The notes under the pieces were generated by a model. That model made no database searches and was not told the DNA's origin. It saw only the letters and a list, made by a program, of their open reading frames with translations. 4,087 nt of DNA from a virus (lineage: Duplodnaviria; Heunggongvirae; Uroviricota; Caudoviricetes): positions 1 through 4,087 of IMG/VR virus record IMGVR_UViG_2606217110_000019; one strand, given 5' to 3'. Each line of letters begins with the position of its first letter. Positions within the stretch are counted from its first letter, which is position 1. Positions 1 to 4,087 of this stretch are shown piece after piece. Both the position numbers and the translations under genes were made by a program.

Positions 1-17
1 AAGATTATTGGCCGTTT

Positions 18-2014
<1,997 letters not shown>

Positions 2015-2020
2015 GAGTGT

Positions 2021-2025
2021 TCCCT
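2021..2025 (-). promoter_or_regulatory. Shine-Dalgarno (AGGGA) for istA
   Basis: Reverse complement of tccct at 2021-2025, with a 6-nt spacer to the ATG at 2012-2014. Confidence 0.5.
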
Positions 2026-2050
2026 TTGTGGTGTAGGAACCTTAAGGAAA

Positions 2051-2103
2051 CAACATGTTGGGTGGAGCGGACAATCCAAATGGTGAATTACTGTCTTATA
2101 TCA
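2051..2103. repeat. IS terminal inverted-repeat region, istA-proximal end, including a perfect 10-bp palindrome CAACATGTTG
   Basis: AGCGGACA at 2066-2073 is the complement of the TGTCCGCT motif; palindrome at 2051-2060. The reverse complement of about 2066-2090 matches window 18-39. The outer boundary is uncertain. Confidence 0.45.
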
Positions 2104-2334
2104 TTGGCGCTGACAACGCTGCTCGTTGAGTTGTGATTTTGCTTCTTCCAGTCCATCCAGCAAATCAGCGATAATATCCGCTTCCCGATGACGGATGTGA
2201 CGCTTAAACGCAGCAAGAGCCGCATCACAATCCCGTTCAGCATTTGGGCTGTCCGGGATAGCCTGATACCACGCCAGCGTCGACTGATAGTTTTGTGCTG
2301 CCTCACGAAGCGCCTCATAGTTAACCTCTCTCAT
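2101..2334 (-). CDS. Hypothetical small acidic phage protein (77 aa); last gene of the coupled cassette, ending at the IS junction
   Basis: ATG at 2332-2334 overlaps the TGA of the upstream gene (ATGA at 2331-2334). Predicted helical, acidic protein with no motif I recognise. The TGA stop at 2101-2103 lies at the predicted IS boundary, so the native C-terminus may be altered. Confidence 0.5.
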   Translation of the reverse strand: MREVNYEALREAAQNYQSTLAWYQAIPDSPNAERDCDAALAAFKRHIRHREADIIADLLDGLEEAKSQLNEQRCQRQ

Positions 2335-2627
2335 TGAGCCACCTCCTGATAAATCACCGCATGCCCCAGTTTCTCCGCCAGTGCCAGCTCTGCCTTAGCG
2401 CCCGCTGACCGCTGCCAGCCTTTCAGCATGTAAATCGCATCCACACAACGAATCATTGCCATGCAAATATCCATGTAGTGCGGCTGTGTCAGCCCGTCCG
2501 GAAGTACTGCCGGGTTCAAGACTGTATGCCCTTCCCGTTTCAGTTCCTCTTCCGCCTTGTGGAACGCCTCACGGTTGAAATTTTTATACCCGGTCATTGG
2601 ACCGGCAATATAAACTCTCACCCTCAC
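2331..2627 (-). CDS. DUF4406 / nucleoside 2-deoxyribosyltransferase-like small phage protein (98 aa)
   Basis: N-terminal VYIAGPMTG motif resembles the Y-x-AGP nucleoside-binding motif of the NDT-like fold; a Glu-rich C-terminal segment (GAKAELALAEKLG) may hold the catalytic Glu. Starts with GTG at 2625-2627, overlapping the upstream TGA (GTGA). Family assignment is from memory, not a search. Confidence 0.65.
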   Translation of the reverse strand: MRVRVYIAGPMTGYKNFNREAFHKAEEELKREGHTVLNPAVLPDGLTQPHYMDICMAMIRCVDAIYMLKGWQRSAGAKAELALAEKLGHAVIYQEVAQ

Positions 2628-2941
2628 TCCTGAACTCTCCTGTCGAAATAAACGTAGTTATTCACTGTGCGCAACGGCATTCCAAATTTTCTGGCGATTT
2701 CTCTCCTGGGTACGCCATGCTGATGCAGCTGTCGCGCCAGTTCAATATCACTCTGCGGATATTTTGTTGACTGGTGATAATCACCCCGTAACATCAGGCT
2801 GACACCCAGTTCCCGCGCTTTCGTTCTGACAGCATCACCTGTACGACCGGTCAGCCTCCCAATGCTTTCGACCGTCATCGTTCCCGCACACTGCCGGAGT
2901 ATCATGATTTCAGCCTCGTACCACTTCTTCCAGCCACTCAC
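2624..2941 (-). CDS. Small phage HTH DNA-binding protein (105 aa; possibly 93 aa from an internal ATG)
   Basis: C-terminal HTH-like segment [21 protein letters not shown] and a second candidate, [25 protein letters not shown]. The GTG at 2939-2941 overlaps the TGA of the upstream gene; an alternative ATG at 2903-2905 is preceded by GAGG. Confidence 0.6.
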
Positions 2942-3699
2942 CGCTGCAGCTCTCCGGTCGCGGTAATATCACGAAGAATATCCCGGTGCTTGTTCAGCTC
3001 CCGCAGCGCGGCGCAGACTCGTTCCCACTTCTGGACATGACTTTTCGCCCGACGCAGTTCGAGGTTTGCCATATGCAGCGATGGTAAAATCAGGTCATCC
3101 GCTCGCGTTTCAGTAAACGATGGCAGCGACTGCACAATGCCCGCTACAGTTTCTGTTTTAATTTCTTCCTGTGTTGCGGCTTCCCGGACTGGTAACGCAA
3201 CACCTGCTGGCTGAGGAAAGGCCTTACCATCATTTTCCGTTACCGATGCTGCTTTCGGCTCTGCTGGTAAATTACCGCCCGGCATGCAGTAACGAAATTT
3301 ACCGCTCTGATTAACGCGTGCCAGCCGCCCCGTTGCAGTTACCACCGCCAGCGTGGAAGCAACCTTGCGAGTACTGATGCCGAACTTACCCGCCAGTTCT
3401 TCACACGTTTTAGCCCCATCCTGACCGATAAACTCAATCATCATGTCTGCTGTAACTTTTTGTTCGACCTCCCCGGTCAGCATATCCTGTGCTTCAGATT
3501 TTACTGGCCGCTCTTCGGTTACCAGGGATTCACCTTCGCCAGCCAGAAACCAGGTGTGACCAGTTTTATCAACGACGCCATTTCTTTTGAGTTCCCACAG
3601 CTCGTTGAGAACCTCTTCACGACTGATATCAAGTCGCGCGGCCAGTTCTACCGATGTGGCTTTTCCCATTGCTTTCAGTGCGTCAAAAACGGTTTCCAT
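2938..3699 (-). CDS. Phage protein with two winged-helix-like modules (DUF1627-like, 253 aa)
   Basis: ATG at 3697-3699 with a strong GGAGG Shine-Dalgarno 8 nt upstream. Two similar wHTH-like segments ([30 protein letters not shown] and [33 protein letters not shown]) separated by an acidic linker. The DUF1627 resemblance is recalled, not searched. Confidence 0.75.
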
Positions 3700-3707
3700 T
3701 AAAATTT

Positions 3708-3712
3708 CCTCC
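3708..3712 (-). promoter_or_regulatory. Shine-Dalgarno (GGAGG) for the 253-aa gene
   Basis: Reverse complement of cctcc at 3708-3712, 8-nt spacer to the ATG; lies in the 21-bp gap after the dnaC-like stop. Confidence 0.55.
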
Positions 3713-3720
3713 GGACAAAA

Positions 3721-4087
3721 TTACTTCACAACCCTCAGGTGTCTGACATTCGAACGCCAGCTCTCCCAGTTAAAATTCACCCAGCGACCACCGTTCATGA
3801 CCATGCGGTCCATCACACGCTCGCCAAGAAGCGTACTCATCGCTACGTGGTTCAGGTTCGTCAGCATTCCGACACTACGCATCGAAGCCGTTCTGCGGTC
3901 GACTATCTGGTTCAGTGTGACCTGCTCGTTGCGCGTATCCCGCTGCATTCCGATTTCATCCAGGACAAGCAGGTCAACATCACACAACCCCTGTAAAAAT
4001 TTTTCGCCTGAGTTTTTGTTGTCGTAGCTGTTGTGTAACGCCAGCATCACATCAGCCACCGTTATCACAATCACGCTGCGACCTTTC
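3721..4087 (-). CDS. dnaC: DnaC-like replicative helicase loader, C-terminal part (5' end lies beyond the window)
   Basis: Translation ...KGRSVIVITVADVMLA...DVDLLVLDEIGMQ...IVDRR...GMLTNLN...LGERVMDRM...WVNFNWESWR is closely collinear with the C-terminal half of E. coli DnaC (Walker B, sensor region, conserved C-terminal tail). The frame stays open to the window edge; TAA stop at 3721-3723. Confidence 0.88.
   Translation of the reverse strand, partial: KGRSVIVITVADVMLALHNSYDNKNSGEKFLQGLCDVDLLVLDEIGMQRDTRNEQVTLNQIVDRRTASMRSVGMLTNLNHVAMSTLLGERVMDRMVMNGGRWVNFNWESWRSNVRHLRVVK

What the first reader, a model, noticed from the sequence alone, without database searches (positions are those of the whole stretch)
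2938..3699. 253-aa protein with tandem winged-helix modules and an acidic linker (DUF1627-like)
Two internally similar wHTH-like units suggest a duplicated nucleic-acid-binding or protein-interaction module. Its position right after the helicase loader, with a strong RBS, suggests a role in replication control or host-factor hijacking rather than structure. The family is widespread in enterobacterial prophages, yet I know of no function assigned to it.
Basis: inference. Interest (0 to 1): 0.4.

Follow-up and report, generated by a model that had tools for sequence, protein, structure and literature searches.

The report
Prophage YdaW/DUF1627 tandem winged-helix protein
This is an intact copy of a common but uncharacterised prophage gene (YdaW/DUF1627 family) that encodes two winged-helix domains and a basic C-terminal helix joined by floppy linkers; it sits at the end of the phage replication genes, and its function is still unproven.

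Summary
Window 2938-3699 (minus strand) is a 253-aa ORF with a GGAGGA ribosome-binding site, 21 nt after a DnaC-like helicase-loader gene. It matches Pfam DUF1627 (E 6e-97) and PHROG 630. It is the full-length homologue of Rac prophage ydaW.

Three points are new here:
- The family is WH1-(WH2)n-C-module, with n = 0, 1 or 2.
- WH1 is acidic, while WH2 and the C-helix are basic.
- The gene follows the replication module whether that module ends in a DnaC-like loader, a lambda-P-like loader or a phage DnaB-type helicase. Near-identical alleles pair with unrelated loaders.

It is not Ren: a Ren-like gene lies just downstream in 53 of 97 related loci. It lacks the Z-alpha signature and is not a paralogue of the initiators.

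Function is unproven. I favour an early accessory adaptor or counter-defence role (about 0.35). The only experimental hint is one overexpression screen, in which K-12 ydaW blocked a retron toxin. The family is already catalogued; interest is modest.

The parts
2938..3699 (-). CDS of the 253-aa YdaW/DUF1627-family protein (stop codon included); 27.7 kDa, pI 5.6
   Evidence: The protein is 100% identical to proteins encoded in IMG/VR loci L016-L020.
3707..3712 (-). Shine-Dalgarno GGAGGA, 7 nt upstream of the ATG
3544..3690 (-). WH1 (aa 4-52): acidic winged helix. This is the most conserved part of the family ([15 protein letters not shown]..; L34 and W50 invariant).
   Evidence: AF2 pLDDT 94-97. 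Alignment A1. Family net charge -2.0, with helix 3 at -2.1. dN/dS 0.22.
3451..3531 (-). Linker 1 (aa 57-83): disordered, acidic in this copy, variable in length (13-41 aa) and in sequence across the family
   Evidence: pLDDT about 50. dN/dS 1.06. Charge and length spread.
3286..3450 (-). WH2 (aa 84-138): basic winged helix. This module is present in 0, 1 or 2 copies in different family members.
   Evidence: pLDDT 94-96. Net charge +3.7, with helix 3 at +2.3. dN/dS 0.19. Copy-number variants P0141/P0146/P0178/P0220 (0 copies) and P0210/P0232 (2 copies).
3148..3276 (-). Linker 2 (aa 142-184): disordered, Pro-rich, consistently acidic in the family
   Evidence: pLDDT 49-58. Mean net charge -4.1 and length 17-60 aa. 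dN/dS 0.44.
3079..3147 (-). Conserved linear motifs (aa 185-207): [IL]-P-x-F-[T] at 192-196 and D-D-L-[IV]-[IV]-P at 201-206
   Evidence: Column statistics: P193 in 36/40 and P206 in 35/40 sequences. pLDDT 56-69.
2944..3078 (-). C-terminal basic amphipathic helix (aa 208-252): E-I-R-R-T-K followed by a hydrophobic seam with 3-4 spacing (215, 222, 225, 228, 232, 235, 242, 245). With the motifs, this is the family-specific module.
   Evidence: pLDDT 91-97. Net charge +6.7 and R216 in 38/40 sequences. No relatives in PDB sequences or in Pfam outside DUF1627.
3721..4087 (-). 3' part of the upstream DnaC-like helicase-loader gene (runs off the window); same operon
2624..2941 (-). Downstream small HTH protein (105 aa from a GTG that overlaps the DUF1627 stop as GTGA; RefSeq annotates a 93-aa version); same operon. 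This slot is variable in related prophages.
   Evidence: Variability of the downstream gene.

Best explanation
SHOWN:
- This is an intact gene under purifying selection in the early-right (replication) operon of a lambdoid, Rac/Qin-like E. coli prophage.
- It encodes a non-enzymatic 'beads-on-a-string' protein of the YdaW/DUF1627 family. The order of parts is: acidic WH1, floppy linker, basic WH2, floppy acidic linker, conserved [IL]PxF / DDLxxP motifs, then a long, strongly basic amphipathic helix.
- WH1 plus the C-terminal module is the invariant core. WH2 is an add-on present 0-2 times.
- The gene occupies the slot directly after the replication module, whatever type that module is.

INFERRED (my preferred mechanism, about 0.35):
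- It is an early accessory adaptor, not a core replication protein.
- The amphipathic C-helix mediates self-association or partner binding.
- WH2, and possibly the basic helix, contact nucleic acid.
- Acidic WH1, whose 'recognition' helix is negatively charged, contacts a protein.
- Its target is a host or generic factor, not the phage's own loader or initiator.
- The most likely biological role is host takeover or counter-defence. An example would be neutralising an abortive-infection toxin, as the two-WH K-12 fragment did to the retron-Sen2 toxin RcaT in an overexpression screen.
For: Identity and anatomy:
- Pfam, PHROG and homologue matches.
- AF2 models: WH and helix pLDDT above 90, linkers about 50, pTM 0.34 and 0.42, so the modules are independent.
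- Per-region dN/dS: WH1 0.22, WH2 0.19, C-helix 0.38, linker 1 1.06.
- Charge pattern across 40 diverse members: WH1 -2.0, WH2 +3.7, linker 2 -4.1, helix +6.7.
- Variable WH2 number, with all variants in the same genomic slot.

Early co-expression:
- 21-nt gap and a strong ribosome-binding site.
- No promoter- or terminator-like site on the minus strand.

Independence from the replication-module type:
- Upstream gene is lambda-P-like in 50 loci, DnaC-like in 39 and other in 6.
- At least five initiator/loader combinations occur upstream.
- One member follows a phage DnaB-family helicase.
- Near-identical alleles sit behind both loader families.
- No profile similarity to the initiators.

Accessory nature:
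- Absent from lambda itself.
- The C-terminal module is deleted in K-12 Rac.

Counter-defence hints:
- K-12 ydaW (WH1+WH2) was a blocker hit of RcaT toxicity (bioRxiv 10.1101/2020.06.22.160242).
- The next gene in 53 of 97 loci is a Ren-like exclusion-escape protein, PHROG 142, E 1e-46.
- Distant members sit beside an orphan Dam methylase on a T4SS element and in the RecE/RecT region.
Against: - No binding partner, nucleic-acid target or phenotype has been demonstrated for any full-length family member.
- The retron result is a high-throughput overexpression hit in a preprint, obtained with the truncated K-12 protein. The text read does not say whether ydaW was among the 11 re-tested blockers. 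Other HTH regulators (dicC, mhpR) were also hits, so the effect could be indirect, for example lower toxin expression.
- Charge patterns suggest binding modes but do not prove them.
- A monomer AF2 model cannot show oligomerisation.
- The synteny sample is dominated by closely related E. coli prophages (80 of about 100 loci are at least 86% identical), so the counts are not independent.
- PADLOC gave only generic WH hits from Csa3/CARF-type models.
- Constant placement next to the replication genes could still reflect a replication-linked function.
Confidence: 0.35

Rival explanations
1. Sequence-specific transcription regulator. The protein dimerises through the C-terminal helix and binds operator DNA through WH2 (MarR/ArsR-like), tuning early or nin-region phage genes or host genes.
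Against: - All HTH-family scores fall below the Pfam/NCBIfam cut-offs.
- The MarR/ArsR dimerisation helices that flank the WH are absent.
- WH1's recognition helix is acidic.
- WH2 can be absent altogether in natural short forms that occupy the same slot.
- The WH2 recognition helix falls into two broadly conserved subtypes and does not vary with immunity type.
- No repeated operator-like sequences were found nearby.
Confidence: 0.25
2. Replication accessory. The protein modulates helicase loading or origin firing, for example by binding DnaB-type helicase, ssDNA or the origin complex.
For: The gene is immediately downstream of, and co-transcribed with, the replication module in 89 of 95 loci, and behind a phage DnaB-family helicase in another. 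Weak Foldseek hits to phage 'replisome organizer' models appear in BFVD, E 5e-3 to 1e-2. All three module types (DnaC-like loader, lambda-P-like loader, phage helicase) converge on a DnaB-family helicase.
Against: - Near-identical alleles are shuffled between unrelated loaders and at least five initiator types.
- There is no similarity to the initiators.
- There are no iterons in or near the gene.
- The gene is absent from lambda and many lambdoid phages, which replicate without it.
- Some members lie outside replication modules, next to RecE/RecT or on a plasmid.
- The K-12 copy lost its C-terminal module.
Confidence: 0.2
3. A true homologue or functional substitute of lambda Ren (escape from Rex exclusion), occupying the ren slot.
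For: It has the same position as ren, right after the loader. PHROG 142 'Ren-like' scores whole-protein E 4.4e-6. hhalign against the Ren family aligns WH2 with the Ren WH over 60 columns, E 5.8e-4.
Against: - hhalign probability is only 29%, and BLASTP finds nothing. In the PHROG hit, no single stretch passes on its own.
- The invariant Ren C-terminal motif N..F.EC(R)QS..M.RVLA.Y is absent.
- A bona fide Ren-like gene (PHROG 142, E 1e-46) lies directly downstream of DUF1627 in 53 of 97 loci, so the two co-occur and do not substitute for each other.
Confidence: 0.04
4. Z-DNA/Z-RNA-binding (Z-alpha-type) protein.
Against: The Z-alpha contact residues are not present. (These are N173 and Y177 in helix 3 and P192/P193 in the wing, from established knowledge of ADAR1 Z-alpha.) WH2 has A114/A118 and WH1 has L31/W35, and these positions are not conserved in the family. 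In the best sequence match (chain 2l54), the two positions that I take, from my recollection of the wild-type ADAR1 sequence, to be N173 and Y177 are both Ala.
Confidence: 0.03

Closest known systems
YdaW of the Rac prophage / Pfam PF07789 (DUF1627) / PHROG 630
   Same: Same family. PF07789 scores E 5.9e-97 and PHROG 630 matches over the full length. Phage records annotate homologues as 'YdaW family' or 'DUF1627 domain-containing'. It has the same position after ydaV (DnaC-like) as in Rac.
   Different: The K-12 reference ydaW is a pseudogene that keeps only aa 1-152 (WH1+WH2, 60% identical) and lacks the C-terminal module. This copy is full length. Neither has a demonstrated function.
Lambda Ren / PHROG 142 'Ren-like exclusion protein' (including LygF)
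   Same: Both are small early proteins built on a winged helix and are encoded right after the helicase loader. There is weak profile similarity over the WH.
   Different: DUF1627 has no Ren C-terminal motif. It has a different C-terminal module and an extra WH. The two genes co-occur as neighbours in 53 of 97 loci.
MarR/ArsR/IdeR-type winged-helix transcription factors
   Different: The flanking dimerisation helices are absent. All family HMM scores fall below their cut-offs. WH1 is acidic. The domains are separated by disordered linkers.
Tandem-WH scaffolds (ScpB, ESCRT-II, UFL1/DDRGK1, SelB C-terminus)
   Same: These are the best Foldseek matches spanning both WH domains (E 1.6e-3 to 1e-2). 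They use WH repeats for protein or RNA binding, not as operator-binding repressors.
   Different: TM-scores are only about 0.2 and no hit has E below 1e-3. Those proteins pack their WH domains against each other, whereas here the domains are separated by a disordered linker of about 27 residues.
Z-alpha domains (ADAR1, PKZ, E3L, ORF112)
   Different: The Z-DNA contact residues are not conserved.
DUF977 (PF06163) prophage WH proteins
   Same: Another uncharacterised prophage WH family. It is often encoded next to DUF1627 (L103-L105, L006).
   Different: hhalign probability is only 8%. DUF977 has a single WH and no DUF1627 C-terminal module.

Membership tests
Pfam PF07789 DUF1627 / PHROG 630 / YdaW family | Profile match above the curated threshold | tested here: met
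   PF07789 scores 322 bits against a cut-off of 28.1, E 5.9e-97, covering aa 91-245 and the whole 155-position model. PHROG 630 scores E 5.5e-136 over 1-250 of 253.
Pfam PF07789 DUF1627 / PHROG 630 / YdaW family | Architecture: N-terminal WH1 ([15 protein letters not shown]...), WH2, and a C-terminal [IL]PxF / DDLxxP / EIRRTK helix | tested here: met
   Alignment A1 of 40 members at 21-86% identity. All blocks are present in the window protein.
Pfam PF07789 DUF1627 / PHROG 630 / YdaW family | Location in a lambdoid prophage early-right operon, directly after the replication module | tested here: met
   Window and L001 context. 89 of 95 related loci have this arrangement.
Lambda Ren / PHROG 142 | Invariant C-terminal motif N-x2-F-x-E-C-(R)-Q-S ... 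M-x-R-V-L-A-x-Y | tested here: not met
   The motif is defined from Ren alignment A3 and its match to LygF-like proteins. It is absent from the DUF1627 sequence and from alignment A1.
Lambda Ren / PHROG 142 | Significant profile similarity | tested here: inconclusive
   PHROG 142 scores whole-protein E 4.4e-6, but no single stretch passes. hhalign probability is 29-32%. BLASTP gives no hit. This level is compatible with generic WH similarity.
Lambda Ren / PHROG 142 | Escape from Rex exclusion | not testable with these tools
   Needs plating of a deletion or complementation phage on a Rex+ lysogen.
Z-alpha (Z-DNA/Z-RNA binding) domain | Winged-helix fold of about 60 aa | tested here: met
Z-alpha (Z-DNA/Z-RNA binding) domain | Conserved contact residues Asn173/Tyr177 (helix 3) and Pro192/Pro193/Trp195 (wing), ADAR1 numbering (established knowledge) | tested here: not met
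   In the phmmer alignment to the ADAR1 Z-alpha chain 2l54, the two positions I take to be N173 and Y177 align with A114 and A118 of WH2. That assignment, and the manual alignment that puts L31 and W35 of WH1 at the same positions, rest on my recollection of the wild-type ADAR1 sequence. The family consensus is not N/Y at these columns. Only the wing aromatic (W50 in WH1; W/Y137 in WH2) is retained.
MarR / ArsR-type dimeric wHTH regulators | Family HMM above the gathering score | tested here: not met
   HTH_11 scores 21.8 against 25, HTH_20 18.8 against 27 and TrmB 16.6 against 25.6. NCBIfam HTH_metalloreg scores 22.6 against 55.
MarR / ArsR-type dimeric wHTH regulators | Helices flanking the WH that form the dimer interface | tested here: not met
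   The AF2 model shows only H-H-H-beta-beta units flanked by disordered linkers. The only extra helix is the remote C-terminal one.
MarR / ArsR-type dimeric wHTH regulators | Sequence-specific operator binding | not testable with these tools
   Needs EMSA, SELEX or ChIP. No nearby repeats were found.
Tandem-WH scaffolds (ScpB, ESCRT-II, UFL1/DDRGK1) | Two or more WH domains packed into one rigid unit that binds a protein partner | tested here: not met
   Foldseek E is at best 1.6e-3 and TM about 0.2. The WH domains here are separated by a linker with pLDDT about 50, and pTM is 0.34.
Phage/plasmid replication initiators with WH domains (the prophage's own initiators) | Profile similarity to the initiator's DNA-binding WH | tested here: not met
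   hhalign of A1 against the L001 321-aa initiator and against the HTH_36+DnaT initiator of L004 gives probability 0.3-0.45%.

The most novel reading that the evidence does not exclude
DUF1627/YdaW proteins are a widespread, modular family of phage counter-defence adaptors. In this reading, the WH1 plus C-terminal core, with 0-2 basic WH2 add-ons, binds and neutralises abortive-infection effectors or their nucleic-acid cofactors (for example retron RcaT / msDNA-type systems). Together with the adjacent Ren-like gene, it forms a small anti-exclusion islet at the junction of the replication and nin regions of lambdoid prophages.
Probability: 0.15. Interest if true: 0.6.

Novelty: already known. 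Interest (0 to 1): 0.3.

Why it matters
Homologous DNA is found in about half of complete E. coli genomes, often in several copies, including Stx-converting phages. Yet the family has no assigned function.

The anatomy worked out here narrows the experiments worth doing:
- The invariant core is WH1 plus the C-terminal module.
- The basic WH2 is optional.
- The gene is independent of the type of replication module upstream.

If the family proved to be a counter-defence or host-takeover factor, it would annotate thousands of prophage genes and add a new modular anti-defence scaffold. If it is an ordinary accessory DNA-binding protein, the finding is routine.

Tried and rejected
- BLASTP self-comparison of the two halves found no similarity (E 21). 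Only profile-profile comparison detects the repeat.
- Ren homology or substitution is rejected. The signal is weak, and Ren-like genes co-occur directly downstream.
- Z-alpha function is rejected on the signature residues, despite the top fold hits.
- Paralogy with the prophage initiators (an iteron-titration idea) is rejected: hhalign probability is below 1%. No iteron-like repeats occur in window 2100-4087.
- Co-variation of WH1 type with loader type was not seen.
- PADLOC gave only generic WH hits from Csa3/CARF models.
- Rfam found no RNA family in the window.
- The C-terminal module searched against PDB sequences and Pfam found nothing beyond DUF1627.
- Foldseek against PDB and BFVD returned only generic tandem-WH proteins.
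- The afdb50 fold library was unavailable.
- The search for related loci with the 40-sequence alignment failed for lack of a conserved stretch. The smaller alignment returned only 9 genome loci, limited by the search pattern.
- The short-form AF2 model was meant to test whether the C-terminal module docks on WH1. It gave pTM 0.42, so there is no confident docking.
Full report
OBSERVATION. The ORF is real and sits exactly at 2938-3699, on the minus strand: 253 aa with an ATG start. A GGAGGA lies at 3707-3712, 7 nt before the ATG. The upstream gene ends with TAA at 3721-3723, leaving a 21-nt gap. The upstream gene is the 3' part of a DnaC-like helicase loader (PF01695; NCBIfam PRK12377, E 9e-64; PHROG 50). 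The full-length copy is 248 aa in a near-identical E. coli prophage (L001, 99.9% DNA identity). The protein matches Pfam DUF1627 (PF07789, E 5.9e-97, aa 91-245) and PHROG 630 over its full length. Phage records call its homologues 'YdaW family'. Identical proteins are already in public collections.

ANATOMY. An AlphaFold2 model built on 40 diverse homologues has five parts:
- Two H-H-H-beta-beta winged-helix units, aa 4-52 and 84-138, with pLDDT above 94.
- Two disordered linkers, aa 57-83 and about 142-205, with pLDDT about 50.
- A long C-terminal helix, aa 208-252, with pLDDT above 90.

The two WH units are not detectably similar by BLASTP (E 21). They are similar at profile level (hhalign 93.5%, E 2.4e-7, 53 columns). 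This fits either an old duplication or simply two canonical WH domains.

Charge is patterned and conserved across 40 members at 21-86% identity:

| Region | Mean net charge |
|---|---|
| WH1 | -2.0 (third, 'recognition' helix -2.1) |
| WH2 | +3.7 (helix 3 +2.3) |
| Linker 2 | -4.1 |
| C-helix | +6.7 |

Across the family, linker 1 averages +0.6, varies from 13 to 41 aa, and evolves neutrally.

The family-specific part is C-terminal. It comprises [IL]-P-x-F-[T] (192-196), D-D-L-[IV]-[IV]-P (201-206), then E-I-R-R-T-K and a hydrophobic seam with 3-4 spacing. A profile of this module finds nothing in PDB sequences or in Pfam outside DUF1627.

Rough Nei-Gojobori dN/dS among 52 distinct close CDS:

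| Region | dN/dS |
|---|---|
| WH1 | 0.22 |
| Linker 1 | 1.06 |
| WH2 | 0.19 |
| Linker 2 | 0.44 |
| Motifs | 0.34 |
| C-helix | 0.38 |

The folded parts are therefore under purifying selection.

FAMILY. The family is small and narrow. An exhaustive HMMER scan of 1.84 billion representatives found 188 with E of 1e-3 or better. The GTDB scan, limited by the search pattern, found Escherichia, Serratia and Enterobacter. Within E. coli it is very common: DNA matches occur in 2778 of 5426 complete genomes, with up to 8 copies per genome.

The architecture is modular:
- Natural short forms have WH1 plus the C-terminal module only (P0141, P0146, P0178, P0220; 128-151 aa).
- The standard form has one WH2.
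- P0210 and P0232 (308-311 aa) have two WH2-like units.

An AF2 model of a short form again gives two confident but independent modules (pTM 0.42). WH1 plus the C-terminal module is thus the core, and WH2 is an add-on.

CONTEXT. The window belongs to a lambdoid prophage integrated beside potC/cobB in the reference relative. The gene order there is: cI-like repressor, then divergently Cro/YdaS-like, YdaT-like, a 321-aa initiator, the DnaC-like loader, DUF1627, a small HTH protein, DUF4406, Ea22-like, and onwards. No promoter- or terminator-like site lies on the minus strand between 2000 and 4087, consistent with one early-right transcript.

In 95 related loci with room upstream, the preceding gene is a lambda-P-like loader in 50, a DnaC-like loader in 39 and something else in 6. 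At least five initiator/loader combinations occur. The architectural variants sit in the same slot:
- Short form P0146 follows a DnaC-like loader.
- The three-WH form P0210 follows a lambda-P-like loader.
- Short form P0220 follows a phage DnaB-family helicase, separated from it only by a 50-aa ORF.

Copies behind lambda-P-like loaders reach 100% (WH1) and 97% (WH2) identity to this DnaC-linked copy. A mosaic junction therefore lies between the replication module and DUF1627.

Exceptions exist. One distant member sits next to an orphan Dam methylase on a T4SS-bearing contig (L005). Two sit beside RecE/RecT genes (L006, L100).

One caveat applies to these counts. About 80 of the loci are E. coli prophages at least 86% identical to the query, so the counts are not independent.

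The gene downstream is variable. It is usually another small (w)HTH protein: a Ren-like PHROG 142 protein in 53 of 97 loci, DUF977 or an Rrf2-like protein. Here it is a PHROG 323 small HTH protein.

COMPARISON WITH KNOWN FAMILIES.
- Ren: The weak PHROG 142 signal and the shared position suggested a link to lambda Ren. However, hhalign against a Ren-family alignment gives only 29% probability. The invariant Ren C-terminal motif is missing. True Ren-like genes sit directly downstream of DUF1627 in most loci. DUF1627 is therefore neither Ren nor its substitute.
- Z-alpha: These domains are the top fold hits, but the Z-DNA contact residues are absent.
- MarR/ArsR: All HMMs score below their cut-offs, and the flanking dimerisation helices are missing.
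- Tandem-WH scaffolds (ScpB, ESCRT-II, UFL1/DDRGK1, SelB): These are the best two-domain Foldseek matches, but only at E of 1.6e-3 or worse and TM about 0.2.
- The prophage initiators: There is no similarity.

LITERATURE. 'DUF1627' or 'PF07789' occurs in three papers of the library, none of them functional. YdaW is listed as a predicted, uncharacterised MarR-type regulator.

The only experimental hint is a bioRxiv preprint (10.1101/2020.06.22.160242). In a genome-wide overexpression screen, ydaW was one of several prophage genes that blocked the toxicity of the retron-Sen2 toxin RcaT. The K-12 gene used there is a pseudogene that keeps only aa 1-152, that is WH1+WH2. Other HTH regulators also scored in that screen, so an indirect effect is possible.

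MECHANISM. Shown:
- The protein is non-enzymatic, modular and flexible.
- The core (WH1 plus the C-terminal module) is conserved, and a basic WH2 is optional.
- It is co-expressed early with the replication genes.
- It is independent of the type of replication module upstream.

Inferred: it acts as an adaptor. The amphipathic basic C-helix would mediate self-association or partner binding. WH2 and possibly the helix would contact nucleic acid. Acidic WH1 would contact a protein. The target would be a host or generic factor, not the phage's own loader or initiator. I favour an accessory host-takeover or counter-defence role (about 0.35) over a sequence-specific regulator (about 0.25) or a replication accessory (about 0.2). 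None of these is demonstrated.

VERDICT. The gene belongs to an already catalogued family of unknown function. The useful new points are:
- the WH1-(WH2)n-C-module architecture;
- the charge dichotomy between WH1 and the basic WH2 and C-helix;
- the strict slot after any type of replication module, with shuffled partners;
- the exclusion of Ren, Z-alpha and initiator relationships.

Interest is modest (0.3). It would rise if the counter-defence reading were confirmed.

Noticed in passing
window 1-2115 (minus-strand genes istB 48-845 and istA 842-2014): An ISEc62-family IS21-like element, 99.9-100% identical to copies on many enterobacterial plasmids. It runs off the window start and ends at about 2115. 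It interrupts the prophage Ea22-like gene. Only the N-terminal 77-aa ORF (2101-2334) remains, whereas the uninterrupted relative is 153 aa (L001 11758-12219).
   Followed up: partly
window 2624-2941 (minus strand): A small HTH protein sits directly after DUF1627 (PHROG 323; weak HTH_23 and Sigma70_r4_2 hits). The longest ORF starts at a GTG that overlaps the DUF1627 stop as GTGA, which suggests translational coupling. RefSeq annotates a shorter 93-aa version that starts at an internal ATG.
   Followed up: partly
window 2331-2627 (minus strand): A DUF4406 protein (PF14359, E 3e-38; PHROG 355 'nucleoside 2-deoxyribosyltransferase') lies in the same operon. This is a possible nucleotide or DNA-modification accessory gene.
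   Followed up: no
L007 5772-6212, L003 3534-3965 and 51 other loci: In 53 of 97 related loci, the gene immediately downstream of DUF1627 is a 135-146-aa Ren-like protein (PHROG 142, E 1e-46; 'LygF' in a Rac record). It shares lambda Ren's invariant C-terminal motif NxxFxECRQS..M.RVLA.Y. It is absent from this window.
   Followed up: yes
proteins P0141, P0146, P0178, P0220 (short) and P0210, P0232 (long); loci L103, L105, L106: Family members carry 0, 1 or 2 copies of the basic WH2 module between WH1 and the C-terminal module. All of them sit in the same genomic slot.
   Followed up: yes
L106/L107 2431-4456: A short-form DUF1627 gene follows a phage-encoded DnaB-family helicase (466 aa), separated from it only by a 50-aa ORF, instead of following a helicase loader. 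This is a third type of replication module upstream of the family.
   Followed up: partly
L005 2051-4165; L006 1133-6783; L100 5-1544: Distant family members lie outside replication modules. One is next to an orphan Dam-type methyltransferase on a contig with IncI/Dot-Icm-like T4SS genes. Two are beside RecE/RecT-type recombination genes.
   Followed up: no
proteins P0122 (339 aa) and P0139 (313 aa): These chimeric proteins join the N-terminus of a prophage initiator (DUF1376/YdaU-type or DnaT-type) to the C-terminal part of DUF1627. They are probably deletion derivatives of decaying prophages that lost the loader gene.
   Followed up: no
L102 3001-3453 (E. coli K-12 Rac): K-12 ydaW is truncated after aa 152 by the deletion that joins it to the Rz-like lysis gene. 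The 'YdaW' used in K-12 ORF libraries and screens therefore lacks the family-defining C-terminal module.
   Followed up: yes
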